Source: Microcoleus sp. (GTDB taxonomy: Bacteria; Cyanobacteriota; Cyanobacteriia; Cyanobacteriales; Microcoleaceae). From it: DNA of 64,000 nt. This document shows positions 11,132 through 31,200 of the stretch, in pieces (within the stretch, counting starts at the first letter, position 1; each line of letters opens with the position of its first letter). The stretch spans positions 64,001-128,000 of the forward strand of contig JAYFMW010000026.1 of assembly GCA_042408215.1 (NCBI GenBank). The letters are read 5' to 3'. Made by a program: the position numbers and the translations under genes. The notes beneath the pieces were generated by a model. It was not told where the DNA came from. It ran no database searches and worked only from the letters and a program-made list of their open reading frames with translations.

Positions 11132-14100
11132 ATGATTGATTTTCGCAACACAAACACCCTCTGGTCTTCAATATTAGCCGAAACTTTACAGCGTCTGGGA
11201 TTAACTACCGCCGTCATTTCTCCCGGTTCGCGATCGGCACCATTAACAATAGCCTTTGCCCAGAACCACAAAATAGAAACTATTCCGGTTTTAGACGAAC
11301 GTTCAGCCAGCTTTTTTGCATTAGGAATTGCCAAAAAAACCCATTTACCCGTCGCACTAATTTGCACATCTGGAACCGCCGCAGCCAACTTTTATCCTGC
11401 GATCATAGAAGCCAGAGAAAGTCGAATTCCGCTGCTAATATTCACAGCCGATCGACCTCCCGAACTGCGGGATTGCCATGCTGGACAGGCTATCGACCAA
11501 GTAAAAATCTACGGCAACTATCCCAACTGGCAAGCCGAATTAGCCATCCCTTCTGCGTCCATAGGAATGTTAGGCTATTTGCGGCAGACGATCGTGTATG
11601 CTTGGGAGCGATCGCAATTTCCAACACCCGGCCCCGTTCACCTCAACATCCCCTTTCGCGACCCACTTATACCCGTTCCAGACATTGCTGTAGAAGCTTT
11701 AGAAACACAATTTGATATCGAAGATTTCTTTGCAGGATTAGAACCGATTGTTGCAGGAGAAACCTCTACCCCCCCCAGCCCCCCCTTAGCAAGGGGGGGA
11801 GCAGGAAGTCCAATAGAACCAAGCCCCCCCTTGTTAAGGGGGGGAGAAGAAAGTACAATGCAACAATGGCAGAAGTGCAGCAGAGGGATAATTATTGCGG
11901 GCGTTGCACAGCCTCAATTTCCCGAAAAATACTGTAGTGCGATCGCCCAAATCTCCAAATCATTAAACTGGCCAGTTTTAGCAGAAGGACTATCCCCAGT
12001 CAGAAACTACGCCCAACTCAACCCCCATCTAATTTCCACCTACGATTTAATCCTGCGAAACCACGAACTAGCAGATAAACTAACCCCAGAAATCGCCATT
12101 CAAATTGGAGACTTACCCACAAGCAAAGAACTACGAAACTGGTTAGACAAAACCCAACCCAGACGATATATAATCGACCCCAGCCACCACAACTTCGATC
12201 CCCTACAGGGCAAAACAACCCACCTGCGAACCTCCGTAGAGCATCTAGCCACTGCTATTTCCCCTCAAGTCCCCCCCCTGATTAAGGGGGGGTTAGGGGG
12301 GGTTCAAGATCGGGGCAACCACGGGGGGATTGCCCCTACAGACAATCAAACAGAAAACCAGAATTTTGTAGGGGTAGTGCCCCCGTGCCTACCCCTCACC
12401 ACCAATGAGGGCAACCACGGGGGGATTGCCCCTACAGACAATCAAACAGAAAACCAGAATTTTGTAGGGGTAGTGCCCCCGTGCCTACCCCTCACCACCA
12501 ATGAGGGCAACCACGGGGGGATTGCCCCTACAGACAATCAAACAGAAAACCAGAATTTTGTAGGGGTAGTGCCCCCGTGCCTACCCCTCACCACCAATGA
12601 GGGCAACCACGGGGGGATTGCCCCTACAGACAATCAAACAGAAAACCAGAATTTTGTAGGGGTAGTGCCCCCGTGCCTACCCCTCCCCACCAATGAGGGC
12701 AACCACGGGGGGATTGCCCCTACAGACAATCAAACAGAAAACCAGAATTTTGTAGGGGTAGTGCCCCCGTGCCTACCCCTCCCCACCAATGAGGGCAACC
12801 ACGGGGGGATTGCCCCTACAGACAATCAAACAGAAAACCAGAATTTTGTAGGGGTAGTGCCCCCGTGCCTACCCCTCACCACCAATGAGGGCAACCACGG
12901 GGGGATTGCCCCTACAGACAATCAAACAGAAAACCAGAATTTTGTAGGGGTAGTGCCCCCGTGCCTACCCCTCCCCACCAATCAGGGCAACCACGGGGGG
13001 ATTGCCCCTACAGACAATCAAACAGAAAACCAGAATTTTGTAGGGGTAGTGCCCCCGTGCCTACCCCTCCCCACCAATGAGGGCAACCACGGGGGGATTG
13101 CCCCTACAGACAATCAAACAGAAAACCAGAATTTTGTAGGGGTAGTGCCCCCGTGCCTACCCCTCACCACCAATGAGGGCAACCACGGGGGGATTGCCCC
13201 TACAGACAATCAAACAGAAAACCAGAATTTTGTAGGGGTAGTGCCCCCGTGCCTACCCCTCCCCACCAATGAGGGCAACCACGGGGGGATTGCCCCTACA
13301 GACAATCAAACAGAAAACCAGAATTTTGTAGGGGTAGTGCCCCCGTGCCTACCCCTCACCACCAATGAGGGCAACCACGGGGGGATTGCCCCTACAGACA
13401 ATCAAACAGAAAACCAGAATTTTGTAGGGGTAGTGCCCCCGTGCCTACCCCTCCCCACCAATCAGGGCAACCACGGGGGGATTGCCCCTACAGACAATCA
13501 AACAGAAAACCAGAATTTTGTAGGGGTAGTGCCCCCGTGCCTACCCCTCACCTCTCCATCAAAGGAATACCTCCAACTTTGGCACAACACCGAAACCCAA
13601 ATCAGACAAACAATAGACCAAAAAATATCAGCAATTCAAAACATAATTGAACCCAAAGTTTCCTGGCTGCTGTCCCAGATTTTGCCACCAGGAACACCAA
13701 TATTTATTGCTAACAGTATGCCAGTCAGAGATGTAGAGTTTTTCTGGAAGCCGAATCACTTAGAAATAAAACCTTTTTTCAATCGCGGCGCTAACGGCAT
13801 AGACGGCACATTATCAACAGCTATGGGAATAGCTCACCGCAATCAAAGCAGCATCATGTTAACAGGGGATTTAGCACTTTTGCACGACACGAACGGTTTT
13901 TTAATTAAACATAAATTTGTCGGTCATCTGACAATTATTTTAATTAATAACAACGGCGGTGGCATCTTTGAAATGTTGCCCGTTGCCAAATTTGACCCGC
14001 CATTTGAAGAGTTTTTTGCCACGCCGCAGCAGATCAACTTTGCTCAGTTGTGTGCAACTTATGGCGTGGAACACGAGATAATTGACGATTGGGAGCAGTT

Positions 14101-14221
14101 AAAAGAAAAATTAAGTTTTTTGCCAAATAGCGGGATTCGTGTCTTAGAATTGCCAACAAATAGGCGTACAGATGCTAAATGGCGGCAAGATCATCTAGGT
14201 AAATTTGCCAAAGATTTGTAA
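11132..14221 (+). CDS. menD: SEPHCHC synthase with large in-frame repeat insertion
   Basis: SPGSRSAPL, DERSA, CTSGTA, TADRP, NRGANGIDG, GDLALLHD, NNNGGGIF; about 1029 aa because of inserts. Confidence 0.92.
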   Translation: MIDFRNTNTLWSSILAETLQRLGLTTAVISPGSRSAPLTIAFAQNHKIETIPVLDERSASFFALGIAKKTHLPVALICTSGTAAANFYPAIIEARESRIPLLIFTADRPPELRDCHAGQAIDQVKIYGNYPNWQAELAIPSASIGMLGYLRQTIVYAWERSQFPTPGPVHLNIPFRDPLIPVPDIAVEALETQFDIEDFFAGLEPIVAGETSTPPSPPLARGGAGSPIEPSPPLLRGGEESTMQQWQKCSRGIIIAGVAQPQFPEKYCSAIAQISKSLNWPVLAEGLSPVRNYAQLNPHLISTYDLILRNHELADKLTPEIAIQIGDLPTSKELRNWLDKTQPRRYIIDPSHHNFDPLQGKTTHLRTSVEHLATAISPQVPPLIKGGLGGVQDRGNHGGIAPTDNQTENQNFVGVVPPCLPLTTNEGNHGGIAPTDNQTENQNFVGVVPPCLPLTTNEGNHGGIAPTDNQTENQNFVGVVPPCLPLTTNEGNHGGIAPTDNQTENQNFVGVVPPCLPLPTNEGNHGGIAPTDNQTENQNFVGVVPPCLPLPTNEGNHGGIAPTDNQTENQNFVGVVPPCLPLTTNEGNHGGIAPTDNQTENQNFVGVVPPCLPLPTNQGNHGGIAPTDNQTENQNFVGVVPPCLPLPTNEGNHGGIAPTDNQTENQNFVGVVPPCLPLTTNEGNHGGIAPTDNQTENQNFVGVVPPCLPLPTNEGNHGGIAPTDNQTENQNFVGVVPPCLPLTTNEGNHGGIAPTDNQTENQNFVGVVPPCLPLPTNQGNHGGIAPTDNQTENQNFVGVVPPCLPLTSPSKEYLQLWHNTETQIRQTIDQKISAIQNIIEPKVSWLLSQILPPGTPIFIANSMPVRDVEFFWKPNHLEIKPFFNRGANGIDGTLSTAMGIAHRNQSSIMLTGDLALLHDTNGFLIKHKFVGHLTIILINNNGGGIFEMLPVAKFDPPFEEFFATPQQINFAQLCATYGVEHEIIDDWEQLKEKLSFLPNSGIRVLELPTNRRTDAKWRQDHLGKFAKDL
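12313..13551 (+). repeat. 13 tandem 96-bp units, each an inverted pair of REP-like palindromes
   Basis: Unit starts every 96 bp from 12313 to 13465; encodes GNHGGIAPTDNQTENQNFVGVVPPCLPL[T/P]TN[E/Q]. Confidence 0.95.
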
Positions 14222-15297: not shown

Positions 15298-16164
15298 TTA
15301 ATCTCGGATTTCCAGGTTGTACTGGCGGCAGAGGGCGATCAGTTTTTGTTGGAAGCGATCGCGCACACTGTCTGGAGAGACGATCGCGCAATCTTCCCAA
15401 TAGGGGGCAATTTCGCGGAAAAACCAGAAGGTATTGAAAATCGGACGGGTGACTCGTCTAATTGGCGGATCGCCTTCTAAGTCGCTGACTTCCACATCGC
15501 CTTGCTTTCGTCTGTAGTTAAAGGCAAGCCTGCCGAATAAGTGAAATTCTACGGAAATTCGCTCTAGATCCGGCAACCAAGTTCGATCGACCGACATCAC
15601 CGCAGCATCTTCAATGCGATCGAGCAGCAGGGTCCAGTTGTGTTCGAGTCCCGGTACGTCTTGATTTCCGTCAGATTCTTCGCAGCGACACATTAAATAC
15701 TGTCGCTTTTCAATAGGGACAATCCGAGCGTGTAAGACTGTGTAACTCCAAAGGCGATCGGCTGCATCTCGATAGGAAAGGCGAAATGGTTGCTGTCTGT
15801 GGATAAAATTATCGATTTTTTGCCGCCAAGCAGGTAAAGGGTTGCTCAAAAACGCCTCGATTTGGGCCCGGAAGGGGAGAGTTAGTTCGCTGCGCGAGCT
15901 CAACAATTGGGCAATTGCCAGCGCTTCATCAATTTTGCCCGAGTCGAGCAATTGCTGTCGGGCGATGTCTAGGGCTTGGATGCGGGTTTGGGGCCAGTCG
16001 TGGTTGGGGGCGATCGTCAGTTGGCGGCGGGCGATCGCTTCTATCAGTTTGGAAATGTTCGGGCGATCGCCCCACGTCTTCCCGAATTCTTGGGCCAAGG
16101 CTTCCAACTGCGCTTTATCTCGTTCAGAAACAGACAGGGTGATCGATTGACCTTTGCGACTCAT
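15298..16164 (-). CDS. WYL-domain transcriptional regulator of the I-D locus (Sll7009-like)
   Basis: N-terminal RHH-like segment, RQYLMCRC and LDRI WYL motifs; divergent from cas3'. Confidence 0.85.
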   Translation of the reverse strand: MSRKGQSITLSVSERDKAQLEALAQEFGKTWGDRPNISKLIEAIARRQLTIAPNHDWPQTRIQALDIARQQLLDSGKIDEALAIAQLLSSRSELTLPFRAQIEAFLSNPLPAWRQKIDNFIHRQQPFRLSYRDAADRLWSYTVLHARIVPIEKRQYLMCRCEESDGNQDVPGLEHNWTLLLDRIEDAAVMSVDRTWLPDLERISVEFHLFGRLAFNYRRKQGDVEVSDLEGDPPIRRVTRPIFNTFWFFREIAPYWEDCAIVSPDSVRDRFQQKLIALCRQYNLEIRD

Positions 16165-16261
16165 AAATGTACGGACACTTCTTCATTGTACGGGCTTGAT
16201 AATCTCAATTATCGGTGTCAATATGAGGAATATCCACTTTCTACGGACACAGATTCAGCAT

Positions 16262-18442
16262 ATGTCCGATTACCAGATTACCCTCAAATCCGTTTACTCC
16301 TGTCCCGCTGCGGAAATTCCCAAAGGAGTGAAATTACCGGAAAATTGGACGCTTTCTTGGCATCAACTTGAAACTTTAAAGGCAATTCGCGATCCGAATA
16401 TTGATGTCATTTTCAACTCAGCTATTACTAGCGACGGCAAAAGTTTAGCCGCTTTCCTAGAAACATTGCAGACATATTGTTGTGCAGTGGCGCTATATCC
16501 TACTAATGAACTGGCGCGAGATCAGGAGACTCAAATTAAGCGCTATATCGAACAATTCCAGCCCGAACATCAACCCCGCGTTGTGCGACTCAGCGGCTCG
16601 GAATTAGAAATCTATGCAGAAAATGAAAAGCTGAGAAAAGCAGCCGCGATCGCATCTCGCACAGGTCAATCAGAGATTTTATTAACTAACCCTGATATCT
16701 TGCACTATCTCCACCGAGGAGCGTATTTAAGCTCTGAAGATAGCCCCGATAAACTGTGGGGTCGCATCGACAAAGATTTTGACCTGTTCATTTTTGATGA
16801 ATTTCATGTTTTTGCTGCTCCTCAGATTGCCAGCGTCATCAATACCCTGTTATTAATTAGTCATACAAACCGCCGAAAAAAGTTTGTATTTCTGTCAGCA
16901 ACTCCAGACGAGCAATTAATTAGCAGACTAGAAACAGCAGGGTTTCGCTGTCAAACTATCGACCCTTTAAAAGCAGGAAAATATCGGTTTCCCGATCGCC
17001 CTGCGGAAATCGAACAGTTGAAATCAGACTCCTGGCGGCAGATATTGAGGGAAAGTACGCTGACTTTTATTTCCCTAGAACCAACTTCAAAAGCTTCTGA
17101 AACTTGGCTGAAAGACAGCGCAAATCACATCCTGACTCACTTTAAACACAATCCGGGAAGTAAAGGAGCTATTATCCTGAATTCAATTGCTGCCGTCAAG
17201 CGGCTGACACCATTTTTTCGGAAATTGTTCGCGCCTCACGGTTTAGTTGTTGGCGAAAATACTGGGTTGTCGGGAAAAACGGAAAAAGAGCGATCGCTCT
17301 CGTCAGACTTAGTTCTCGGTACTAGCACCATTGATGTCGGGGTAGACTTCAAAATCAATTTGCTGATTTTTGAATCCGCCGATGCGGGTAACTTCATTCA
17401 AAGATTGGGAAGGTTGGGGCGACACGATGGGTGCGATCGCAATGGGGAGTTTATTCAGTTTCAAAATTTCACAGCCATCGCACTCACCCCTAATTTCTTA
17501 GTCGAACGCTTATTTGCAGGCGATACTGCGACTTTAGAGTCTAATGGAATTTACGATCGTCCTTTTTTCTATCAACAAATTCGCGAAAAGTACCGCCAAA
17601 TCAACAATTTTGAGGGATATTATTCGCGGTGGGGTGCGGTGCAGTCAGTTCAAATTTGTTGGGAATTAGGGCACAGGACAATTAAACAGCAGTACGCATC
17701 AAGTCAGAAAGCTTTTCAGGAAGCTGCTCAAAAAGTATTTAAAACTAGCTTGGGGAAAGTGGCCGGTAATATTAAACAGTGGGGCAAAGAGTGGAAAGAG
17801 CGATCGGGAAATAAAACAGGAAATCCGATCGTTGAAGATGCTAGCAGTTTTCGAGGTTCTAGTCCCCTGCAATGCGGCATCTGCGATTTAACCGATTCCC
17901 ATGAGGCAGACAAATTTAAAACTTACGATTTACCAGGAATTTTGAGCAACTTGGAAATCGAACCGATGACGGAATCTGCATTTATGCAAATGTTGAAGGA
18001 GACATCTGAACGCCTTGGGCAACCAATTGCCAAAGGTCGATTTAAACACTGTCTGGCTTTTTTGAAGTTGCGTAGTTATCGGGAGGAAAGACTGAATTGG
18101 AAATTTACTTATTCGGGAAATTTAGAGGAAAACGCTGCTGTTTGGAAAGTTCAGGTGTTGACGGGGATTGAGGTTGTGCAACCTGAGAATTATTGGATCG
18201 GGGAAATCAACAAGCGTTTGAAGAAGCAAGCATTGGTTTGTTATGTGCTGCGTTATCCGGTGGCTGAAGTGCGATCGCGCCTGCGACTGCCGGTGCACTT
18301 TCAGATTTATCCGATTTGCGATCGGTACAGTATCCACGATGGGACTGCACCTTATTCGATCGCCTTTGGGCAGTCGGCGCTGCTTGTGGACACGCTGGCC
18401 CACTGGCTCAAGAGTAAGGGGGATGAAGTATGGATTGCGTAG
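16262..18442 (+). CDS. cas3: Type I-D Cas3' helicase
   Basis: YPTNEL, DEFH, SAT, TIDVGVDF, QRLGRLGRH; no HD domain; Walker A reads TSDGKS. Confidence 0.9.
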   Translation: MSDYQITLKSVYSCPAAEIPKGVKLPENWTLSWHQLETLKAIRDPNIDVIFNSAITSDGKSLAAFLETLQTYCCAVALYPTNELARDQETQIKRYIEQFQPEHQPRVVRLSGSELEIYAENEKLRKAAAIASRTGQSEILLTNPDILHYLHRGAYLSSEDSPDKLWGRIDKDFDLFIFDEFHVFAAPQIASVINTLLLISHTNRRKKFVFLSATPDEQLISRLETAGFRCQTIDPLKAGKYRFPDRPAEIEQLKSDSWRQILRESTLTFISLEPTSKASETWLKDSANHILTHFKHNPGSKGAIILNSIAAVKRLTPFFRKLFAPHGLVVGENTGLSGKTEKERSLSSDLVLGTSTIDVGVDFKINLLIFESADAGNFIQRLGRLGRHDGCDRNGEFIQFQNFTAIALTPNFLVERLFAGDTATLESNGIYDRPFFYQQIREKYRQINNFEGYYSRWGAVQSVQICWELGHRTIKQQYASSQKAFQEAAQKVFKTSLGKVAGNIKQWGKEWKERSGNKTGNPIVEDASSFRGSSPLQCGICDLTDSHEADKFKTYDLPGILSNLEIEPMTESAFMQMLKETSERLGQPIAKGRFKHCLAFLKLRSYREERLNWKFTYSGNLEENAAVWKVQVLTGIEVVQPENYWIGEINKRLKKQALVCYVLRYPVAEVRSRLRLPVHFQIYPICDRYSIHDGTAPYSIAFGQSALLVDTLAHWLKSKGDEVWIA

Positions 18443-18443
18443 A

Positions 18444-18558
18444 ATATCAAGCCCTAATAGGGTTTGGGTTAAGTCAGGTAGGAAGGTAGAGGAACGAACG
18501 CCATTAGGAGCGCAGCTAATGTTTTCAATCCCTAATAGGGGGTTAAGCTATCAATAAA
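18444..18558 (-). CRISPR. Degenerate antisense mini-array (2 repeat-like units, 1 spacer-like unit)
   Basis: Minus strand reads ...CCCTATTAGGGATTGAAAA-(about 40 nt)-...AAACCCTATTAGGGCTTGATAT, versus array repeat end AAACCCTATCAGGGATTGAAAC. Confidence 0.75.
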
Positions 18559-18595
18559 AATTAATAAGCTTTTCTACCTGTCCACACCCTACATC

Positions 18596-18636
18596 AGTAT
18601 ACCAAGGATGACAACTATGTTTAGATCGTTTATACT
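18596..18636. promoter_or_regulatory. Back-to-back sigma70-like promoters
   Basis: Minus strand: TGGTATACT extended -10 (18604-18596). Plus strand: ATGACA-17bp-TATACT (18608-18636). Confidence 0.5.
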
Positions 18637-18844
18637 CAGACAATGGAAAGCTTCGCGGCTCTGTGAGCAACGATCGCGAGTAGGAACACAGATATGTAAT
18701 CGCAGCCCTTCTTGTTCTTTAGACAGAACGGTTTTTAGCGTCACTTTATTTGAGTGGGGGTATAACGCCCCCCTTCTGCTCCTGTCAGCAGTCAGCAGCC
18801 GTGAGTCTTTCCAGTCTGTAAAAACTCAAAAGGAGACATTCACA

Positions 18845-19096
18845 ATGCCAAAGCCAAAACGCTCTGGTGAGGGAGGGCCTTTGCTATTTATTCCCTATTC
18901 CCGGAAACCTTTTTTGGAAAACAAAAAGAAAGTTCGAGGGAGAAATCGCCACCCCTTTGAGTTGCTGGAAAAAGTTCAGAACTTATTAGAAACTGCACTG
19001 GACAGAAATGAGTTTGAGTCAGAGGAGGTCAAAGCAGAAGTCTATGACTTTTTAGTAATCCTCCGAGGCTCTAAAAAGGTATCTCAAAGGCGCTAG
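18845..19096 (+). CDS. Orphan basic 83-aa protein inside the cas locus
   Basis: AAGGAG RBS upstream of ATG; followed by hairpin GCTCTACAGG...CCTGTAGAGC. Confidence 0.6.
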   Translation: MPKPKRSGEGGPLLFIPYSRKPFLENKKKVRGRNRHPFELLEKVQNLLETALDRNEFESEEVKAEVYDFLVILRGSKKVSQRR

Positions 19097-19220
19097 ATAG
19101 TAGCACCTTACGAATTTTCATTAGTTAGGCTCTACAGGAGTAGTGTAACTACATAAGAGCCTGTAGAGCTCTTTTGTCAAAAATCTCTATCAAAGATAAG
19201 TGAGTTCTTTCATAGACTCC

Positions 19221-19363
19221 CAGGGCTGTTTCATTCTCTTGTAGGGGCGGTGCCCCCGTGCCCGCCCTAGCTCTCAAACACATACAAAATGTCGATGAAG
19301 AGGGTCGGCACGGGGGCACGACCCCTACAAAATTATCGTTTTCTTGAGAATGAAATAGCCCTG
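19221..19363. mobile_element. MITE with 18-bp TIRs and 10-bp target duplication
   Basis: CAGGGCTGTTTCATTCTC / GAGAATGAAATAGCCCTG ends; CATAGACTCC at 19211-19220 and 19364-19373; internal REP pair. Confidence 0.88.
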
Positions 19364-19386
19364 CATAGACTCCCTAGAGGCATAAA

Positions 19387-22300
19387 ATGGCTAAAAAACG
19401 TCAAAAACCAGATGAAGAGTATCAACAACTCTCATTATTTGATATCCCAGTTAATTTGAACTCTGAGCGATCGGATGATCCAGATGATGACTGGTTGCAA
19501 GATGAAGAATTAGGGTCAAACTTTCAAACGTCCGATCGCACAATCGAACCTCAAACTCGCGACTTACTAACCCTCAAACTCTTGCGATCAGCCATTCAGA
19601 GTCAAAATCCAGGCGATCGCGTCATGGCAGACTTCGCAGAATATGTCTTGCCAAATCTGCTGCGAGTTGCCATTGGCGTCACAGCCAAAGGCGGCAAATT
19701 TTTTGACGAACTCGATCGCAAACAAGGAAAAGAGAACGTCAGGCGCGATAACGCAGGCGATCAGTCCCTAAATACTCACCTGCTAAATGGATTATTTCCC
19801 GCTAATTTAATTGAACAGCGGTTAGAAAAACTCGATACCACCGTGCGGCGATCCGTAGGAGAAAAAGAACGGCGGTTAGTAATTGCTGGATTTATTCTCC
19901 ACGACTTTGAAAAATTCCCCGATGTCCCCAACGATTGCCGCAAGTTACCACTAGAAAAGCACCGTCAAATTATTGATGAAAAAGTGCGACAGTTAGGACT
20001 AGATAGCTTGATCAATCCCGACGATCCAGATGCTTATCGAGAATACATTGACGATTTGCTCTGCCTTGCTTACAACGCTCAGCGGCGTTGGGATACTAAC
20101 TGGAATTTTTCCGAATTTGGGTTAAATCCAGTGTTGCGCGATCGCACACTCCGCAGTCTTTCAGACTTAACCTGTTTAGCAGATTCCCTAGCATCTATTA
20201 TCAAACATCCCCAAGATGCAGAAAATACCAGACTAAACGAGTTAATCCACAGCCTCAGCGACGGACAATTAAAATTCACTTATCACAGCATCGCTGAAAA
20301 CAGAGGCGTACTTACTAACGTCGTCAATAACGCTTTAATGGAAGTGCATACGGCGCTGAATACCGACGCTTGCACCTACTATGAACCACTGCTTTACCTA
20401 CCAACAGGTGTAATTTACCTAGCACGGCGGGATGCTCCTGCTATTTCAATTGCAGACTTGCCCGAACGGGTAGTTAGCAAGATTAAACAACTCTGCGCCG
20501 GACAATTGCAACGGCGACAAACTGGATTTGGTAGAGATGGTAAAGGCATGAAATATGCCGAGTATTATAACCTGTTTTTTGATCCGTCAGAGTTGATGCT
20601 AGTTGCTGTTGATGCTACTTTACGCATTCTCAAAATAGGAAAAAACTCTGTTGCCAAAAGTCGCAGCGATAATCTGATCAAATTTCAGCGTCAGGATGTT
20701 TTATCTGCCGATTATAAATTCAATTTTGAGGACGATATTCGGATTGACCAAATTGCTGAACTTGGGGACTTAGTGAGTCGCAAGATTTGGGGAGAACAGG
20801 TTAATACCATCGAAACTGCACGCAAGAAAGACAAAAAACTACCCGCCCTAACTCATCTAGATATTGTCGATGAAATTGCTAAGTTTTGGAACCTGTCCGA
20901 CTATCTACCAGCCCTAAGAGAAATTCAACGGATTAATGAAAGCCTCAAAGAACTTAAACTAAAAGGCAATACAGGCGGCGTTCCTTACGAATGGTACTAT
21001 TTAGCAGCAAAGTACCTAGAACATCACCCAGGAATTGAGGATGTGCGGGAAGTTTGCGAACAGGCGATCGCCCACATTTCCCAAATGATTAAACCCATTC
21101 TTTCACAGTACAAATTGCCCGACGGTTGGGACGATTTGCGGTTGTGGGTAACGCGGGTTGTTATGTTACCCGGAAATACACCATTGGACACAGCATCCGC
21201 TGACGTATTTTTAGATGAATTGGAACGCTACCAACTCGCCAAAAAACAGGGTAGAGGAAGACAGTTAATCTGTTCGATTTCCCATTCAGCTTACACGGTG
21301 ACAGAACAAATGGAATCAGCCGTTTTGTTCACCCCTCAAGTTTACACTAACAAACAAATGTTGGGAGGTTCTAACGCCAAACGGAATATTTCTAGTATTG
21401 CAGGTTTGGAAATGATGCTGAGGCAAATTTTAATGAATCAAACTCAAGCTGTGGGCAAAAAATTTGAAGATGGCAAATATCGCTATCTCTATTTTTATCC
21501 CACATATTACTTCACCCCAGAAACAAATAAGTTTCTGCAAAAAGCCTACACTAGCATTGCCCAAACCCGCTTTGATACCAGCATACGCAATCATTTTATC
21601 AGCAAAGATTTGCAAGCCGATTTTGGGCGCGATCGCTACCAAAGCATCGATGCTTTCCTCATAGATGAAAACATCGAACCAGGAAAAGACCGCACCTTCA
21701 AACTTTCCTATCCCGAAGACCAACCTCTAACATTTTACTTCATGGCGCTTCCCCCCGGTAGAGATGCAACAGATACCGAATCTTGGGTAATGCCAGCTTG
21801 GCTAGCTTTTGCTTTCCCGATGATTCTGGATGTCAAAACCGTAGTTTCAGAGTCGCCAATTCCGCCTTTTAACGACGGTGCAGAATTTGAAGAAACCGTA
21901 TTTCTTGACAGTGTACCCCAAGCTTTTAGGGTATTGACCAAGCGCGATCGCTTTCGTCTCGACTATATTTTAGAAGGATGGGAGGAAAACGGCAAATCTT
22001 ATCCAGCACCTTTGAATGTGTTAACCGCTGCTTATGCGATTCACCTTGATGTTAATGCAAAACAAGGGAAGTCCGGTTATGACTCCAACTGGGGAAAATT
22101 AACTGAACTCGCCACTGATTTTGAAACCAGCCCGCTTTATGTGTTTAGCTACCTAAATAAGTGGGTGCGGAAACAGAAAAATGAAACGGCATCAATTCAA
22201 AAGATTAAGCTTTATGCTTATCATTTTTACCCTTGCTTTGACTCCTATGCCCAACTATAATTTCATGATCAGAGGAACGGATCGACTGAGACAACCGCAT

Positions 22301-22860: not shown

Positions 22861-23874
22861 ATGCCTTTCTTGAAAACAGTTGACTCTAAATTTTTCCATG
22901 CTAACATCCCCTACAAACCAATGGGTAAATATGTACACTTTCTGACTGTGCGGGTGACGGAATCTTATCCCCTATTTCAGACAGATGGAGAACTGAATAA
23001 AGCGCGGGTGAGGTCAGGAATTCAAGACCAAAAACCAATCAGTCGCCTGACCATGTTTAAGCGCAAGCAATCTACACCAGAACGTTTGGTCGGTCGCGAG
23101 TTGCTGCGTAACTACGGTTTTATGACCGCTGAAGACTGCGAATACAATGTCAAGTTTGCCATGAATAACCCTGATTGCATTATCTACGGATTTGCGATCG
23201 GTGACTCTGGTTCAGAGAAGTCAAAAGTCGTAGTTGACACAGCATTTTCAATTACCGCTTTTGACGAATCTCACGAGACTTTTACCCTCAATGCTCCCTT
23301 TGAAAATGGCACAATGGCATCTAAGGGTGAAGCAGGTTCCAAACCAGGCGAAGTTACCAGCCGCATCAATCAGCAAGACCACATCAAACCCCAGATTTTC
23401 TTTCCTAGCATTGTCACCCTGAAAGATCCTACCGAAGCTAGTTTTTTGTATGTTTTCAACAACATCCTGAGAACGCGGCACTATGGGGCTCAAACCACCC
23501 GCACAGGTAGAGTCAGAAATGAGTTAATTGGTGTGGTATTTGCAGATGGCGAAATTACCAGTAACCTCCGCTGGACGCAAGCAATTTACGACAAATTGCA
23601 GCTTGACAATAAGCTGAATTCCAACAACCCTCTCAATGAAGATGATGTGATTATAGCTGCTAGCGCTGCTATCCAAACATTAATGTCTGAGGAATTTATC
23701 GTGCATCAGGACTTTATTGGGAATAAGTTTACACCATTAGTGACAGAGGTTAAAGCTGTTATTGGCAATGAAGATGAACTCAAAAAGATGTTGAAAAAAG
23801 CTGATGACGAGGCTAAAGCTTACGCGAAGAAGCATATCAAGGGTAAAGCGGGATCTACAGCAGCAGCGGAGTAA
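22861..23874 (+). CDS. csc2: Cas7d (Csc2)
   Basis: FKRKQSTPERL, DCIIYGFAIG, YGAQTTRTG. Confidence 0.9.
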   Translation: MPFLKTVDSKFFHANIPYKPMGKYVHFLTVRVTESYPLFQTDGELNKARVRSGIQDQKPISRLTMFKRKQSTPERLVGRELLRNYGFMTAEDCEYNVKFAMNNPDCIIYGFAIGDSGSEKSKVVVDTAFSITAFDESHETFTLNAPFENGTMASKGEAGSKPGEVTSRINQQDHIKPQIFFPSIVTLKDPTEASFLYVFNNILRTRHYGAQTTRTGRVRNELIGVVFADGEITSNLRWTQAIYDKLQLDNKLNSNNPLNEDDVIIAASAAIQTLMSEEFIVHQDFIGNKFTPLVTEVKAVIGNEDELKKMLKKADDEAKAYAKKHIKGKAGSTAAAE

Positions 23875-23879
23875 CAACA

Positions 23880-24587
23880 ATGGCTATTATTTACCGCTGT
23901 CAAATCGAGTTGCACGATAGCCTTTATTTTGCAACTCGCGAGATAGGGAGACTTTACGAAACAGAGCCGGTAATTCACAATTACGCGCTTTGTTACGCCC
24001 TCGGTTTGGTGGATAGCGAAATCTATGCCACCACCGTTTCCGAAGAACATTCCTATCGCTATTTCTGTCCCGAACAAATCCCCAAATACGAGCCGCATTT
24101 AACGGCGCTCAACCAACAGGGGATTTATGTTACTCCAGGGCGATCGCTTTTTCACTCCTCCACTCTCAATACTTGGAAATACGCCAACAACAACTATCAC
24201 GTTGAGATGGAAAAAACCCAGAAAAATATCCCCAGTTTTGGCAGAACCAAAGAAATTGCTCCTGAAAGCAAATTTGAGTTTTTCATCATCTCAGAAAAGG
24301 CTTTGAAACTGGCTAAATGGATTCGTTTGGGAAAGTGGATGAGCAAAGCAGCAGTCGAAATTGTAGAACAGAAGGAAGTGAAACGCTCAACTTCTGAAGC
24401 TGACTTGATTTTTCCCTATTTGCTCAATCCTTTAGATGTGATGTTTTCTCATCAAGTGATTAGCTACGATGTGGTAAATATGCCCCCAGTTAGTTTGATT
24501 CAAAATGTCAAAATGAGAGGGCGATATTACCTATTTGAAAACCTCAAAATTCCAGCCTGTATGCAATATCGCTTTAAGGCTGATTAA
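23880..24587 (+). CDS. csc1: Cas5d (Csc1)
   Basis: FATRE, IHNYALCYAL, WIRLGKWMSK, LNPLD. Confidence 0.9.
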   Translation: MAIIYRCQIELHDSLYFATREIGRLYETEPVIHNYALCYALGLVDSEIYATTVSEEHSYRYFCPEQIPKYEPHLTALNQQGIYVTPGRSLFHSSTLNTWKYANNNYHVEMEKTQKNIPSFGRTKEIAPESKFEFFIISEKALKLAKWIRLGKWMSKAAVEIVEQKEVKRSTSEADLIFPYLLNPLDVMFSHQVISYDVVNMPPVSLIQNVKMRGRYYLFENLKIPACMQYRFKAD

Positions 24588-24886: not shown

Positions 24887-25770
24887 ATGCCACACAGCCT
24901 AGTCCTAAACCTCCTCCCCCAGGCCCCAATTCCCCCCGGATACCTCACCGGAAGACACCTGCACGCCCTATTCCTCACCCTCGTGAGCACCGCAGACAAA
25001 AAACTCGGCGACTACCTCCACGAAGCCACCGCCCAAAAATCCTTCACCCTCAGCCCTTTACAAACCAAAAAATGCCCTTTCAAAAAACATCATTCCCTCC
25101 AATGGGAACACACAGAACCAATTCCAGAACATACCCTCTGCTGGTGGCGAATTACTCTCCTTGATGACAGTTTATTCAGCAAATTAACTCACCTTTGGCT
25201 CAATCTTAATCCCGCTCATCCCTGGCACCTGGGCCCGGCGGATTTGCTGATTACGAATATCTTCGGCACTGCTCAATTAAATCAACCTTGGGCTAATGCT
25301 TGTACTTACTCTCAATTGTACGAACAAGCTTCGGAAACTAACCGCTTAATTGCTTTTAGTTTTGCGACTCCTACTACTTTTAGGCAGGGGAAATTCGATT
25401 CGGTGATTCCTACTAGAGAATGCGTTTTTAACAGTCTTCTCAGTCGCTGGAATAAGTACAGCCCGCATCGCAGATTCCCGATCTTTCCTTCGATGCACTG
25501 TTTTCGACATTTGTCAATATAAAAAGCGAAAAAGTGACTAACTATGAAATCAATTTTGTGGGGATGGTTGGGGAGGTTAGTTATCGGATCTTGGGTGATG
25601 TGGAACCTTTGGCGATTAAGCAAATTAATGCTTTGGCTGATTTTGCTCTTTACTGCGGGGTTGGGAGGAAAACTCCGATGGGGATGGGAATGACACGGCG
25701 AATTGCGATCGCACCTTCTCAAAAAATTACCAAGCAAAATGCAGAATTATCGTTCCCGATTCAAGGGTAA
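24887..25770 (+). CDS. cas6: Cas6 endoribonuclease (frameshifted near 25460-25535)
   Basis: GRHLHALF, FTLSPL, FATPTTFRQ; Gly loop YCGVGRKTPMGMG lies in a second frame. Confidence 0.85.
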
Positions 25771-26137: not shown

Positions 26138-26731
26138 ATGAACGATTTTGATTACATTTCGATCGCACTTCTCAACCAATACTCTTACTGTCCTCACCGC
26201 TGTTGGCGAATGTCTTGTGCGGGAGAATTTGCGGATAACCAGTATACCATCGAAGGGACGACTTTGCACGATCGCGTCCACACGATGGGCGAAATCAACC
26301 GCGACGAAACTTGGCAAATTCGGGCGATTTGGCTGAAGTCTGAGAAGTATATGCTGATTGGGAAATCCGACTTAATTGAATCAACCGATGGTGAGTTGTA
26401 TCCCGTCGAGTACAAGCGGGGGCGGAAGGGGGAATGGGATAATGATGAGTTGCAAGTTTGCGCTCAAGCGCTTTGTTTGGAGGAGATGACGGGGAAAAGT
26501 ATTGCGACTGGATATGTGTATTACGCGCAGTCGCATCAGCGGCAATTAGTGGAGATTTCTGAGCGGTTGAGACGGGAGGCAATTGTGACTATTTCTGCAA
26601 TCCAAATTTTACTGCAAACGGGCAAAATGCCTCCAGCTAATTATAGCAAACGCTGTCAGGGTTGCAGTCTTTATCCGCAATGTTTGCCGCAAGCTGCGGA
26701 GAAAGTCCTGCGCTATCAAGAAGCAAGTTAA
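26138..26731 (+). CDS. cas4: Cas4
   Basis: YCPHR, GKSDLIE..PVEYK, QALCLEE, CQGCSLYPQC. Confidence 0.93.
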   Translation: MNDFDYISIALLNQYSYCPHRCWRMSCAGEFADNQYTIEGTTLHDRVHTMGEINRDETWQIRAIWLKSEKYMLIGKSDLIESTDGELYPVEYKRGRKGEWDNDELQVCAQALCLEEMTGKSIATGYVYYAQSHQRQLVEISERLRREAIVTISAIQILLQTGKMPPANYSKRCQGCSLYPQCLPQAAEKVLRYQEAS

Positions 26732-26753
26732 CCTACAAATAGGAGAGTTCACA

Positions 26754-27761
26754 ATGGGAACAGTTTACATTACTCAAGAAGATGCTTTTATCGGCAAGAA
26801 TGACGAACGTCTTACCGTTAAAGCAGACAAAAAAAATTTGTTGGATGTGCCGTTAATTAAAATTGATGGTGTTGTTGCTTTGGGACGCGCCACAGTTTCT
26901 CCGGCTGTGGTTGTGGAACTTTTGGAACGTCACATTCCTTTAAGCTTTCTGACTGAAACGGACGTTATTTAGGCAGGCTGGAACCGGAAATGACGTAAAA
27001 ATATTTTTGTGCGAAAAGCTCAGTGGCAAGCAGCAGGCGAATCTGAAAAGTCAGTACATTTAGTCAGGGGTTTTGTACGAGGTAAACTCAAAAATTACCG
27101 CAATACTTTGTTGGAATGTCAGCGCAAATATTCTCCACAAGATTTTGAAAAATCGATCGCCCAATTGAAACAAGTCATCGCGTCAATAGACAAAACTGCG
27201 AGTATTAATTCCCTGCGAGGATTAGAGGGGGCGGGTAGTGCGACTTATTTTGGCTGCTTCAATCGGCTGATTCGCGTGCCTGAATTTAGCTTTGAAGTTC
27301 GCCGTCGTCGTCCGCCGACCGATCCGGTAAATTCTCTGTTAAGTTTGGGATATTCTCTGTTGCGGCACGATGTTCAAAGTGCGGTGAATATTGTGGGGTT
27401 CGATCCGTATTTGGGATATCTTGCATTTCGAGCGCTATGGCCGTCCTTCCTTAGCACTGGATTTGATGGAAGAATTTCGACCGTTGGTAGTTGATGCTGT
27501 AGTGTTAACAGCGATCAATTTGCAGAAAGTTGCTCCTAATGATTTTACGGCAGAACCGTTGAGCGGTGCGGTTTCTTTGACAAAAGAAGCGCTGCACAAT
27601 TTTTTACGACTTTACGAGCAAAAGAAACAGTCAAAATTTAAGCATCCAGTGATGGGAAAGTCGTGTGCACTTATCAAGAAGCTTTTGAAATTCAAGGGCG
27701 GCTGATGGCTAAGTATTTGATGGGTGAAATTGACAAGTATCCACCTTTAGTTTTGTACTAG
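26754..27761 (+). CDS. cas1: Cas1 (split over several frames)
   Basis: LRGLEG, RRPPTDPVNSLLS, GFDPYLGY, LALDLMEEFRP; frameshifts near 26960-27000, 27420 and 27660. Confidence 0.88.
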
Positions 27762-28290: not shown

Positions 28291-31200
28291 GCCGCAAAAT
28301 ACCTAAAACCCTATCAGGGATTGAAACCCTGGCAAATTCAACTCTTCCATTACTCGATCGCGTGCCGCAAAATACCTAAAACCCTATCAGGGATTGAAAC
28401 GCCGGTGGGGATATTCATGCGATTATTTCTGCCGCCGCAAAATACCTAAAACCCTATCAGGGATTGAAACGATAATTTTTTTTCAGCAAGCCACTGAACA
28501 TCGCGCCGCAAAATACCTAAAACCCTATCAGGGATTGAAACTCCATAATCGATCGAGCTAAAGCCGACTGCGATCGGGGCCGCAAAATACCTAAAACCCT
28601 ATCAGGGATTGAAACGGGCAGATTGATTTTGAGCTGCGATCGCAAGCTGTGGGCTAGGCCGCAAAATACCTAAAACCCTATCAGGGATTGAAACGATCAA
28701 GCATCTCCCGAGCTTCAACGTATAATCTGTGAGCCGCAAAATACCTAAAACCCTATCAGGGATTGAAACACAGTGCTCTATGACGAGTAACGCAATGGCC
28801 GCCAGCCGCAAAATACCTAAAACCCTATCAGGGATTGAAACGCTGAATGAATCATCGCTCAGTAAAAAATTACCATGCCGCAAAATACCTAAAACCCTAT
28901 CAGGGATTGAAACTTAGCGGCTAATGCTACTGATACCGTAGCATTAGCGCCGCAAAATACCTAAAACCCTATCAGGGATTGAAACCCCGCAATTGGGCTA
29001 AGCGGCTGTTCGTCGCTTCTTTCGCCGCAAAATACCTAAAACCCTATCAGGGATTGAAACCAGAATCACCGTTCTCAGAACGTGCAGCTAGCTTGGCCGC
29101 AAAATACCTAAAACCCTATCAGGGATTGAAACAGCCATTTTGCCGACATCGGCAAAATGGGCACCCCAGCCGCAAAATACCTAAAACCCTATCAGGGATT
29201 GAAACGAAAATGGCTGCTACGATGCCTCTATTTCTAAATGCCGCAAAATACCTAAAACCCTATCAGGGATTGAAACTTATTTTGAGATAATCCTGGCTAT
29301 AGATGACGGGCCGCAAAATACCTAAAACCCTATCAGGGATTGAAACAGAGGAAGTGTGTTCGCCCACGGGCGAAAAAACCTATGCCGCAAAATACCTAAA
29401 ACCCTATCAGGGATTGAAACTTCGCGGTGTTTTTAGCTTAATCTGCAAAGCGCTAAAGCGCCGCAAAATACCTAAAACCCTATCAGGGATTGAAACAATC
29501 TCGGATTAGCCCTAGCACCGCCTAATACGAGCCGCAAAATACCTAAAACCCTATCAGGGATTGAAACTTAACCGACTTGACCCCCTTGTCGATCGCAGAT
29601 GCGCCGCAAAATACCTAAAACCCTATCAGGGATTGAAACGAACTAACTACAGCTTGTTGGACGCTAGGAAGAAGTGCACCGCCGCAAAATACCTAAAACC
29701 CTATCAGGGATTGAAACAATCAGAACAGGAGCTAATATCTGTGCCGTTGAGCCGCAAAATACCTAAAACCCTATCAGGGATTGAAACAACACTAACTTAC
29801 GGGGAGCAATCCCTCTTTTCTTTCGCCGCAAAATACCTAAAACCCTATCAGGGATTGAAACGGAAGCAATATTAACAATACCCCGTCCGCTCTTTTGCCG
29901 CAAAATACCTAAAACCCTATCAGGGATTGAAACATTATAGTTACTTATATAAATCAAATTTGTAGCAAATTGCCGCAAAATACCTAAAACCCTATCAGGG
30001 ATTGAAACAGAACCGGGGAGGATTAGGACTAAACAATGGGGTGCCGCAAAATACCTAAAACCCTATCAGGGATTGAAACTCCATCAAGATTACCTATCGC
30101 GCCCCGGTACAACCCCACGCCGCAAAATACCTAAAACCCTATCAGGGATTGAAACCTCGTGGCTAGCGATCGCCTCCCGTACTTTCTCCCATGCCGCAAA
30201 ATACCTAAAACCCTATCAGGGATTGAAACCGTTGCTTGGACTTTTTCTGGCGTTACTTTGGATTCAGCCGCAAAATACCTAAAACCCTATCAGGGATTGA
30301 AACGTAGGAGTCTTGGTGACTCGCTATATGCTCTTCTAGCCGCAAAATACCTAAAACCCTATCAGGGATTGAAACACAAAATTGGCTCCGAGAAAACGAA
30401 AGCTTGATGGCCGCAAAATACCTAAAACCCTATCAGGGATTGAAACGATTGACATTTAGCCGATGTTCGGCAGACCTGCGCCGCAAAATACCTAAAACCC
30501 TATCAGGGATTGAAACGAACTTGCGCTTGAATTTGTGACGTTTTTTGCTGAACAGCGCCGCAAAATACCTAAAACCCTATCAGGGATTGAAACCTATTTC
30601 CTTGTGATACCGTTGCAGCCACAAAGGGCCGCAAAATACCTAAAACCCTATCAGGGATTGAAACTCAATACAGGAATCTTCATCAGGGAATTGAATAGCC
30701 GCAAAATACCTAAAACCCTATCAGGGATTGAAACGGATGCCCCCGCAGCGGAACAACAATTTGTCAAAGTTTGCGCCGCAAAATACCTAAAACCCTATCA
30801 GGGATTGAAACCTGTGTCTGGTTTTCTGAGCGCCGCCAGATTGTAACTGCCGCAAAATACCTAAAACCCTATCAGGGATTGAAACTGATAATCTTAAAAG
30901 CACTTCGCCAGCGCCATATAGCCGCAAAATACCTAAAACCCTATCAGGGATTGAAACTGGGTAGATGAGATAGATGATTGCAATAGGTGGGCCGCAAAAT
31001 ACCTAAAACCCTATCAGGGATTGAAACGGGCCACAGGCTATTGTATATTTTGTCCTCTTTGGGCCGCAAAATACCTAAAACCCTATCAGGGATTGAAACA
31101 TCTATTAATTTCACTCCAATTAATGACGATTTTTGCGCCGCAAAATACCTAAAACCCTATCAGGGATTGAAACTATTGCCAGCAAACCATTTTGCCTGCT

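What the first reader, a model, noticed from the sequence alone, without database searches (positions are those of the whole stretch)
18444..19096. Hidden antisense mini-CRISPR plus divergent orphan ORF between cas3' and cas10d (CreTA/CreR-like cassette in type I-D)
Seen: two degenerate copies of the array repeat lie on the minus strand (18558-18522 and 18480-18444). Both keep the CCCT..AGGG stem, and the first keeps an ATTGAAA handle (17 of the last 19 nt match). They flank one ~40-nt unit, CATTAGCTGCGCTCCTAATGGCGTTCGTTCCTCTACCTTCC, which has a CATTAG/CTAATG hairpin. Back-to-back promoters at 18596-18636 would drive this RNA and, divergently, a 200-nt leader plus an 83-aa basic ORF with a strong RBS. 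Established: crRNA-like CreA/CreR RNAs in cas intergenic regions guide Cascade to repress a toxin or cas promoter. Inference: a Cas6-processed regulatory guide with a possible new protein or RNA toxin. I found no convincing GTN-PAM plus seed target in this window.
Basis: partly seen in the sequence, partly recalled or inferred. Interest (0 to 1): 0.82.

Follow-up and report, generated by a model that had tools for sequence, protein, structure and literature searches.

The report
Guide-RNA switch inside a CRISPR locus
A tiny two-repeat CRISPR-like gene hidden between two CRISPR genes of a filamentous cyanobacterium most likely makes a guide RNA that steers the cell's own CRISPR complex onto the leader of a neighbouring small gene of unknown function, a kind of self-regulation already predicted for such loci, but here the target looks unusual.

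Summary
Two degenerate copies of the array repeat lie on the minus strand at 18558-18522 and 18480-18444. They flank a 41-nt spacer directly after the cas3' stop of a type I-D locus, next to divergent promoter-like sites and an 83-aa ORF.

The cassette (mini-array, leader, ORF) was found in 13 genomes, in four genera of one family plus one genome of another family. It always lies between cas3' and cas10d.

This class was already described computationally: type I-D mini-arrays that regulate cargo genes (Shmakov et al. 2023). This scan has noted similar elements in I-C, I-E, I-F and I-G loci, none in I-D.

Two things are new here:
- I found no GTN PAM plus seed target. Sibling cassettes at the same hotspot do have one.
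- Guide positions 4-33 match a conserved site in the ORF's leader (window 18665-18694). The mismatches fall on every sixth position, the signature of a Cas7-held guide. The site has no PAM and lies on the strand that makes the guide complementary to the mRNA.

I favour PAM-independent binding of the leader RNA by Cascade. DNA-level repression is the main rival. The ORF's function is unknown and toxicity is untested. In this genome cas6 is frameshifted and cas1 is a pseudogene.

The parts
16154..18442 (+). cas3' (type I-D helicase); the mini-array starts 2 nt after its stop codon
   Evidence: TIGR03158, E 9.9e-115
18444..18480 (-). distal degenerate repeat (psiR2), the more decayed copy; hairpin kept, 3' handle decayed
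   Evidence: 23/37 identical to the array repeat; hairpin in the predicted fold; present in 13 of 13 cassette loci
18481..18521 (-). 41-nt spacer-like guide segment; positions 7-33 are invariant within the genus and 78-85% identical between genera
18522..18558 (-). proximal degenerate repeat (psiR1); it would give the 8-nt 5' handle of the guide after Cas6 cleavage
   Evidence: 17 of 19 in the 3' part; the only hit outside the array; 0 expected by shuffles
18596..18623 (-). promoter-like site that would drive the mini-array (inferred)
   Evidence: consensus scan, 9 of 12 with TG; conserved in the genus and in L041
18608..18636 (+). promoter-like site that would drive the leader and the 83-aa ORF (inferred); its first hexamer abuts that of the minus-strand site
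   Evidence: consensus scan, 10 of 12, spacing 17; the second hexamer aligns in all 11 loci
18657..18697 (-). conserved site matching the guide (written on the minus strand). The paired part is guide positions 4-33 = 18694-18665, about +21 to +50 of the inferred transcript. Mismatches lie at positions 6, 12, 18, 24 and 30, plus 10 and 20. The flank at the PAM place is ATT, not GTN.
18845..19096 (+). 83-aa basic protein gene of unknown function (cargo), with a disordered N-terminus and three predicted helices
   Evidence: conserved in 13 genomes; dN/dS 0.15-0.5 with saturated synonymous sites; AlphaFold2 pLDDT 73
19129..19176 (+). terminator-like hairpin (10-bp stem, long loop, 4 T) closing the cassette; relatives have 6 T
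   Evidence: read from the sequence; not called by the scan, which allows loops of 3-8 only
19387..22260 (+). cas10d, first gene of the effector block (csc2 22861-23874, csc1 23880-24587, cas6 24887-25522 frameshifted)
   Evidence: TIGR03174, TIGR03157, TIGR03159, PF19308
28291..32707 (+). CRISPR array, 61 repeats, source of the repeat that the mini-array copies

Best explanation
The region is a self-contained regulatory cassette inserted between cas3' and cas10d of a type I-D CRISPR-Cas locus. On the minus strand a two-repeat mini-array encodes a crRNA-like guide. After Cas6 cleavage this would carry an 8-nt handle, a 41-nt guide segment and a hairpin tail (inferred). Diverging from it, a promoter-like site would drive a leader of about 200 nt, an 83-aa protein gene and a terminator-like hairpin.

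Guide positions 4-33 pair with a conserved site near the 5' end of that leader. The guide is complementary to the mRNA and to the non-template DNA strand. The site has no GTN PAM, and guide positions 1-3 do not pair.

I propose that type I-D Cascade loaded with this guide binds the leader transcript without needing a PAM and so holds down expression of the small gene. Loss of Cascade or of the guide would release it.

Shown: the anatomy, the conservation, the six-nucleotide periodic pairing and the absence of a canonical target.

Inferred: transcription and processing of the guide, loading into Cascade, RNA rather than DNA as the bound molecule, and the sign of the effect.

My odds that this is a working regulatory guide of some kind are about 0.75. 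The 0.4 given here is for the RNA-level version.
For: 1. Real repeat copies with correct geometry.

2. Conservation.
- The ORF was found in 12 of 144 genomes of the family, in 4 of 15 genera.
- All 12 carry the mini-array beside it, between cas3' and cas10d.
- A 13th cassette lies in another family.

3. The degenerate repeats follow the host array repeat. In L043 both the array and the mini-array have the same changed loop.

4. Selection.
- Synonymous sites of the ORF are saturated between genera (pS 0.7-0.88).
- Guide positions 7-33 stay 78-85% identical and the leader site 81-96% identical.

5. The match.
- It scores 25 of 41 in the window, and 0 of 500 spacer shuffles reach it (maximum 24).
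- It lies at the syntenic place in 13 of 13 loci.

6. Periodicity.
- Within positions 4-33, all five sixth positions are mismatched in the window (hypergeometric P 1.5e-4).
- In the other lineages 3 to 5 of 5 are mismatched, with P from 0.0004 to 0.068.
- These lineages are related, not independent.

7. Changes on both sides that keep the pairing occur at position 4 in L043 and at positions 11 and 15 in L042.

8. No seed dependence. Among near-identical genus members the guide varies only at positions 1, 5, 6 and beyond 34.

9. Positive control for the search method.
- With the same script, 10 of 16 loci tested show GTN plus 9-10 of 10 seed matches, 60-150 nt from the mini-array. All 10 are sibling cassettes with other cargo.
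- 0 of 4 loci of this cassette type do.

10. Published biochemistry (passages read in PMC9123187). Synechocystis type I-D Cascade binds complementary ssRNA at about 11 nM whatever the flanking sequence. It showed no detectable binding to dsDNA with an AAC PAM and minimal binding with a CGT PAM.

11. Contigs from RNA libraries of three studies cover the leader and the ORF:
- 18594-19103 with no difference;
- 18588-19106;
- two that begin at 18656.
This is compatible with transcription but does not prove it.
Against: - No direct evidence that the guide is made, cut or loaded.
- RNA binding by type I-D Cascade was shown only for a fully matched target in vitro. Here 23 of 30 positions pair.
- The site lies about 148 nt upstream of the start codon, so it is unclear how binding would lower expression.
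- The guide and the site lie on the same strand and could be related by descent or gene conversion. The spacers of several cassette types are visibly homologous, so the cases are not independent.
- In this genome cas6 carries a net +2 frameshift. Guide processing may therefore be lost here, unless the second Cas6 beside a type III locus substitutes.
- All 13 loci come from related cyanobacteria.
Confidence: 0.4

Rival explanations
1. Same guide, but it acts on DNA as in CreA/CreR and CrePA. Cascade binds the double-stranded site at about +21 to +50 and blocks RNA polymerase just after the promoter, despite the non-canonical flank.
For: - All experimentally studied crRNA-like regulators act this way. 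Sources: the abstracts of PMC9458426 and PMC10097628 in the listing; the abstract and section headings of 10.1101/2024.01.05.574328; sections 22 and 24 of PMC10120712.
- The site lies directly downstream of the promoter-like site.
- Sibling cassettes use GTN plus seed DNA-type targets.
- The flank is ATT in 10 of the 13 loci, so T at -2 is kept there.
Against: - No GTN occurs at the flank in any of the 13 loci: ATT in 10, and ACT, ATG and CGT in one each.
- Guide positions 1-3 are unpaired: positions 2 and 3 mismatch in all 13 loci, position 1 in 3.
- Published gel shifts show PAM-dependent dsDNA binding.
- The guide's 5' end drifts freely among close relatives.
Confidence: 0.25
2. A decaying relic. 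The mini-array is a leftover of array or cassette shuffling, and the leader match is a remnant of a duplication or of an old self-derived spacer. Neither has a present function, at least in this genome.
For: - This locus is eroding. cas1 has at least 6 in-frame stops and cas6 is frameshifted.
- The window's guide differs from its closest relatives at positions 1 and 5.
- Related genomes show empty sites and a single-repeat remnant.
Against: - The guide and the site are the best conserved non-coding blocks across genera whose synonymous sites are saturated.
- Mismatches concentrate on every sixth position.
- The repeats co-vary with the host array repeat.
Confidence: 0.1
3. The guide is used by a co-resident type III complex, which targets RNA without a PAM. 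The unpaired 5' end of the guide would allow binding of the leader RNA without setting off Cas10.
For: - The genome holds a Csm1/Cas10 gene (C20:526794-529046, 593 bits) with a Cas6 gene about 4 kb away.
- Two further arrays with the same repeat core lie elsewhere (81 and 61 copies).
- The roles of the 5' region in type III activation are recalled, not tested here.
Against: - The cassette is tied to the type I-D locus in all 13 genomes.
- I did not test whether those genomes have type III systems.
- No array with this repeat core lies on the type III contig.
Confidence: 0.07
4. The two hairpins only serve the cas3' transcript, as terminators or stabilisers, or act as Cas6 decoys. The stretch between them is not a guide.
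For: The distal hairpin begins 10 nt after the cas3' stop. Both hairpins also form on the + strand because the stem is palindromic.
Against: - No T-run follows the hairpins on the + strand, and the terminator scan calls nothing there.
- This reading explains neither the conserved 38-42-nt spacing, nor the handle, nor the conserved guide segment with its periodic match.
Confidence: 0.03

Closest known systems
Type I-D mini-arrays implicated in cargo-gene regulation (Shmakov et al. 2023, PMC10120712; sections 22 and 24 and the figure 6 legend read). A computational prediction, not tested for I-D.
   Same: - A two-repeat mini-array directly after cas3, read opposite to cas3.
- The proximal repeat is better kept than the distal one.
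- Small cargo genes lie between the mini-array and cas10d.
- The site is a hotspot where cargo and spacer vary while the position stays fixed. I saw the same here: 23 of 28 related loci with downstream DNA have a repeat-like unit there, with at least five cargo types including MNT/HepT toxin-antitoxin pairs and an HTH protein.
   Different: - That paper reports targets of 10 bp or more next to the proper PAM, with a 5' seed, in promoter regions.
- This cassette has none. It has a PAM-less, seed-less, 30-nt periodic match inside the transcribed leader.
- I could not see whether this cassette is in their lists. The two supplementary files held do not contain the genus names I searched, and the other files are not held.
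CrePA of Acinetobacter type I-F (Shu et al., bioRxiv 10.1101/2024.01.05.574328; abstract and section headings seen)
   Same: A crRNA-like RNA beside a small protein gene inside a cas locus. The effector represses the protein gene, and release follows when the effector is inhibited.
   Different: - Subtype I-F, with a promoter target repressed on DNA.
- CreP is a shown bacteriostatic toxin that blocks cell division.
- The ORF here has no detected similarity to any family and its toxicity is unknown.
CreTA of Haloarcula type I-B and Acinetobacter type I-F (abstracts of PMC9458426 and PMC10097628 seen in the listing)
   Same: Degenerate repeats make a guide (CreA) that steers Cascade to silence a neighbouring gene.
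   Different: - CreT is a small toxic RNA, whereas here the cargo is a conserved protein gene under purifying selection.
- A PAM-flanked partial target in the toxin promoter, as I recall it and as says of such targets, is absent here.
CreR-type cas autoregulators (named in reviews found; the original paper was not read)
   Same: A mini-array between cas3 and the large-subunit gene, with a guide partly matching a site upstream of effector genes.
   Different: - Here the site belongs to a cassette with its own terminator-like hairpin before cas10d.
- Only one RNA-library contig of a relative runs from the leader into cas10d.
- Autoregulation of the effector operon is therefore possible but not shown.
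ssRNA binding by Synechocystis type I-D Cascade (Schwartz et al. 2022, PMC9123187; passages read)
   Same: PAM-independent, guide-specific RNA binding by the same kind of complex. This gives a mechanism that fits a PAM-less, mRNA-complementary site.
   Different: That work was done in vitro with a fully matched artificial target, and no natural RNA target is named. A review lists the physiological role of single-strand targeting as an open question (PMC10212523).

Membership tests
Type I-D CRISPR-Cas locus | cas3' helicase separate from cas10d (HD-bearing large subunit), with csc2/cas7d and csc1/cas5d | tested here: met
   TIGR03158, TIGR03174, TIGR03157 and TIGR03159, all far above their cut-offs
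Regulatory mini-array (crRNA-like RNA gene) of type I loci, as in Shmakov et al. 2023 | Two repeat-like units separated by a spacer-sized gap, outside the array and inside the cas locus | tested here: met
   37-nt units 41 nt apart; 38-42 nt apart in relatives
Regulatory mini-array (crRNA-like RNA gene) of type I loci, as in Shmakov et al. 2023 | The repeat beside the guide's 5' end is better kept than the distal one; the unit reads opposite to cas3 | tested here: met
   3' 19 nt: 17 of 19 for the proximal unit against 15 of 19 for the distal unit (counted by hand); both are on the minus strand
Regulatory mini-array (crRNA-like RNA gene) of type I loci, as in Shmakov et al. 2023 | Conserved in position in related cas loci | tested here: met
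   13 of 13 cassette loci; 23 of 28 related cas3' loci with downstream DNA have a repeat-like unit at the same place
Regulatory mini-array (crRNA-like RNA gene) of type I loci, as in Shmakov et al. 2023 | Partial match of the guide's 5' seed to a site next to the subtype's PAM (GTN) in a promoter region | tested here: not met
   - No GTN site with more than 8 of 10 seed matches between the mini-array and cas10d in 9 loci.
- Genome-wide, 0 sites with 10 of 10 and 20 with 9 of 10, against about 27 expected by my own estimate.
- The same method finds such targets in 10 sibling loci.
Regulatory mini-array (crRNA-like RNA gene) of type I loci, as in Shmakov et al. 2023 | The RNA is transcribed, cut by Cas6 and bound by the effector | not testable with these tools
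   Only contigs of RNA libraries were available. These cannot show a small processed RNA.
CreTA / CrePA (CRISPR-repressed toxin with RNA antitoxin) | The neighbouring gene product is toxic when derepressed | not testable with these tools
   No similarity to any toxin family. An indirect hint against strict addiction is that the ORF is intact although cas6 is frameshifted. A second Cas6 exists, however.
CreTA / CrePA (CRISPR-repressed toxin with RNA antitoxin) | The guide targets the toxin promoter next to a PAM, so that Cascade represses transcription | tested here: not met
   The site is downstream of the promoter-like site and has ATT, ACT, ATG or CGT where the PAM should be
CreR (cas autorepression) | The target controls the promoter of the effector (large subunit) operon | tested here: inconclusive
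   - A terminator-like hairpin separates the ORF from cas10d.
- One RNA-library contig of a relative bridges the leader, the ORF and cas10d (X3).
- In a sibling cassette (L060) the homologous long site lies about 170 nt upstream of cas10d.

The most novel reading that the evidence does not exclude
The long, PAM-less, six-periodic match is a natural RNA target of type I-D Cascade. A chromosomal guide would direct this type I/III hybrid complex onto the 5' leader of an mRNA of its own locus. Binding would be by pairing without PAM or seed, so that no DNA cleavage is licensed. This would give a physiological role to the ssRNA binding so far seen only in vitro. It would also define a second, RNA-level mode of crRNA-like regulation beside the DNA-level mode used by sibling cassettes. 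Two sibling cassette types seem to carry both kinds of site.
Probability: 0.3. Interest if true: 0.8.

Novelty: new variant of a known kind. Interest (0 to 1): 0.58.

Why it matters
Guide RNAs that turn a CRISPR complex into a regulator of its own locus are known from experiments in types I-B, I-F, I-E and II. For type I-D they are only predicted.

This case adds a well-conserved type I-D example. Its target does not follow the DNA rules: it has no PAM and no seed. It does carry the every-sixth-base signature of a Cas7-held guide, and it is complementary to the message.

If the target is the RNA, this would answer a question that a 2023 review of type I-D lists as open: whether single-strand targeting by this hybrid complex has a physiological role. 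It would also suggest a natural design for PAM-free RNA binding by a type I complex.

The 83-aa cargo protein has a strongly conserved basic N-terminal motif. Its family is tiny: 12 clusters among 1.84 billion representatives. It is a candidate new effector or regulator linked to CRISPR.

If the site proves to be an ordinary DNA roadblock, the finding is simply one more member of a known class.

Tried and rejected
- Seed-anchored target searches, with and without GTN, found nothing above chance. I searched the window, 3-kb loci, 20-kb loci, the region from the mini-array to cas10d and the whole genome. The longest exact genome matches were 13 nt.

- The RNA-library contigs laid do not cover 18471-18587, the mini-array. 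Contigs cannot show a small RNA, so this says nothing.

- For the 83-aa protein:
  - no Pfam, NCBIfam or PADLOC family;
  - no Foldseek match in the PDB at E 0.001 or better;
  - the VIA-align wide search gave a best Z of 4.3, only generic helical hairpins;
  - the protein atlas gave no named neighbour;
  - a profile of the family found no homologue in 19 sibling-cassette loci.

- I rejected the 162-aa ORF 18608-19096 listed. Its upstream extension is open only in the genus (160-185 aa). In the other three genera the frame is 86-88 aa, and the ribosome-binding site before the internal start is conserved.

- Rfam gave only two sub-threshold microRNA-family hits on the palindromic mobile element at 19237-19333.

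- The exact-pattern scan of genome contigs was too unspecific.

- The supplements of the Shmakov preprint gave 0 occurrences of four genus names in the 2 files held. The locus lists themselves are not held.

- Literature searches for experimental work on type I-D crRNA-like RNAs found none in the library.

I answered the question afterwards from stored loci without typed letters.

- I ran no complex prediction because I claim no protein-protein binding.

Full report
**What is there.** The window holds a complete type I-D locus on the + strand:
- a WYL-domain regulator gene on the minus strand (15298-16164, PADLOC WYL, E 1.2e-9);
- cas3' (16154-18442), cas10d (19387-22260), csc2, csc1, cas6, cas4, cas1 and cas2;
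- an array of 61 repeats of 37 nt at 28291-32707.

The gap of 945 nt between cas3' and cas10d holds the finding.

**Check of the observation.**
- A search with the 3' 19 nt of the repeat, allowing 3 mismatches, gave 62 hits. 61 are in the array and one lies at 18522-18540 on the minus strand with 2 mismatches. Shuffles gave none.
They keep the stem-loop and lie 41 nt apart.
- The proximal unit keeps the handle with one changed last base; the distal one has a decayed handle.
- The distal unit starts 2 nt after the cas3' stop.
Such scans are weak evidence.
- The ORF is 18845-19096 (83 aa) with a strong ribosome-binding site.

**Conservation.**
- The 83-aa protein has relatives named by their sources as hypothetical proteins of Microcoleus.
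- In whole genomes it was found in 12 of 144 genomes of the family (4 of 15 genera).
- All 12 have the two-repeat unit beside it on the opposite strand.
- In the 11 fetched contexts and the window the order is always cas3', mini-array, ORF, cas10d. The WYL regulator gene stands upstream in the 11 of 12 whose contig reaches that far.
- A pattern built from the handle and guide found one more cassette in another family of the order (7 of 401 genomes matched, 6 already known).
- The degenerate repeats follow the host's own array repeat. In L043 the array and both mini-array units share a different loop.
- The ORF is a real gene. Between genera synonymous differences are saturated (pS 0.7-0.88) while non-synonymous ones are 0.2-0.35.
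- The N-terminal basic motif is nearly invariant.
- The family is tiny: 12 clusters at E 0.001 or better among 1.84 billion representatives, two of which are long repetitive proteins that are probably spurious.

**The target.**
- I found no GTN plus seed target in the window, in 20-kb contexts or in the genome.
- A local alignment of each guide against its own neighbourhood found, in 12 of 12 loci (and in the 13th), one conserved match on the same strand, 134-229 nt upstream of the proximal repeat.
- In the window this is 18697-18657. Guide positions 4-33 pair at 23 of 30 places.
- The mismatches are at positions 6, 10, 12, 18, 20, 24 and 30, so all five sixth positions are among them (P 1.5e-4). 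Other lineages show 3-5 of 5.
- Every sixth base of a guide held by a Cas7 backbone is turned away from the target. This is stated for I-F in the Shmakov text; for type I-D I recall it and did not check it.
- 0 of 500 guide shuffles reach the observed 25 of 41.
- Three positions changed on both sides in single lineages.
- The guide and the site are the best conserved non-coding blocks of the region.
- The site begins about 21 nt downstream of the start inferred from the + strand promoter-like site. It lies on the strand that makes the guide complementary to the mRNA.
- The three bases where a PAM would stand are ATT (10 loci), ACT, ATG or CGT, never GTN.
- Guide positions 2 and 3 never pair and position 1 pairs in only 10 of 13 loci.
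- Positions 1, 5 and 6 of the guide vary among otherwise near-identical relatives.

**Sibling cassettes as a control.**
- A search with the Cas3' C-terminus matched 62 of 144 family genomes.
- Of the 30 loci returned I examined 28. One had no downstream DNA and one was skipped.
- 23 have a repeat-like unit directly after cas3'.
- Their spacers and cargo differ. The cargo includes a 90-aa coiled-coil-like protein, a 63-aa protein, an HTH protein, and nucleotidyltransferase/HepT toxin-antitoxin pairs.
- With the same script, 10 of 16 loci tested show a GTN PAM followed by 9-10 of 10 seed matches, with mismatches at positions 6 and 12, on the + strand 60-150 nt from the mini-array. All 10 are sibling cassettes. 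None of the 4 loci of the present type does.
- So the method finds canonical targets where they exist.
- Two sibling types (L058 group, L060 group) carry, besides the canonical site, a long PAM-less match on the minus strand with 4 of 5 sixth positions mismatched (read by hand).
- Their spacers are visibly related to the present one, so these are not independent cases.
- In L060 that long site lies between the HTH gene and cas10d.

**Expression.**
- Contigs from RNA libraries of three studies hold the leader and ORF:
  - 18594-19103 without any difference (X1);
  - 18588-19106 (X2);
  - two contigs of relatives that both begin at 18656, one of which runs on into cas10d across the place of the mobile element (X3, X4).
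- DNA can be present in such libraries, and contigs show no strand. This is compatible with transcription and at most a weak hint for a start near 18643.

**Mechanism.**
- The class is known. Shmakov et al. describe type I-D mini-arrays after cas3, read opposite to it, with cargo genes before cas10d and predicted PAM-flanked targets.
- What fits badly here is DNA binding. Published gel shifts show no detectable binding of type I-D Cascade to dsDNA with an AAC PAM and minimal binding with a CGT PAM. The same complex binds complementary ssRNA at about 11 nM whatever the flank.
- A PAM-less, seed-less, mRNA-complementary, six-periodic site is what one would expect for RNA-level binding. I therefore favour that (0.4) over a DNA roadblock (0.25).
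- The sign and route of the effect are inferred. The site is about 148 nt from the start codon.
- A co-resident type III complex could in principle use the guide.

**State of this genome.**
- cas1 has at least six in-frame stops.
- cas6 has two single-base insertions relative to relatives, which shift the frame for the last 80 residues.
- The effector genes are intact.
- A second Cas6 gene lies beside a type III locus.
- The ORF is intact. This is a mild argument against a strict toxin-addiction reading, but it does not settle it.

**Verdict.** This is a real, conserved regulatory mini-array cassette. It is a member of a computationally described class, with an unusual target that may point to RNA-level action of type I-D Cascade. 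The cargo protein remains of unknown function.

Noticed in passing
window 26700-27758: cas1 is a pseudogene. One reading frame aligns over 352 residues to a relative's Cas1 (72% identity) but holds at least six in-frame stop codons. cas2 and cas4 look intact.
   Followed up: partly
window 25460-25525: cas6 is frameshifted. Two single-base insertions relative to relatives put the last ~80 residues in another frame, with a stop at 25520-25522. It is the only gene of this Cas6 type in the genome. A different Cas6 lies at C20:533268-533621.
   Followed up: partly
window 19210-19364: A ~155-nt palindromic mobile element is inserted between the cassette terminator and cas10d, flanked by an 11-nt direct duplication. 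It is absent from relatives and from RNA-library contigs of relatives, and has many copies in this genome and genus. Its end supplies the first hexamer of a promoter-like site at 19344-19371 just before cas10d.
   Followed up: partly
window 12313-13552: A 96-nt unit repeated 12.9 times (99% identical) lies inside the menD ORF (11132-14221, 1029 aa) and splits its family match in two. The unit contains a GC-rich palindrome like that of the mobile element.
   Followed up: no
L052, L058, L060, L061, L077, L078, L080 (related genomes, site after cas3'): The site after cas3' is a hotspot. At least five different spacer and cargo combinations occur there, most with canonical GTN plus seed targets. 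Two types have, in addition, a long PAM-less periodic site. 'Empty' loci (G080) and a single-repeat remnant (G113) also occur.
   Followed up: partly
window 15298-16164 (minus strand): The 288-aa gene diverging from cas3' is a WYL-domain regulator (PADLOC WYL, E 1.2e-9). [quoted passage not shown] Its start overlaps the annotated TTG start of cas3', which is probably too far upstream, because the family match begins at residue 70.
   Followed up: no
genome contigs C10:106341-112139, C12:69123-73513, C17:710114-710252, C20:526794-533621: Two more arrays (81 and 61 repeats) and a three-repeat cluster share the same repeat core. A type III locus (Csm1/Cas10 and a Cas6) lies on another contig, without such an array beside it.
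   Followed up: no
P0018 (112 aa, from the representative search): One distant relative joins an N-terminal half like the 63-aa cargo of a sibling cassette to a C-terminal half like the 83-aa protein. This hints that these small cargo proteins are related or modular.
   Followed up: no
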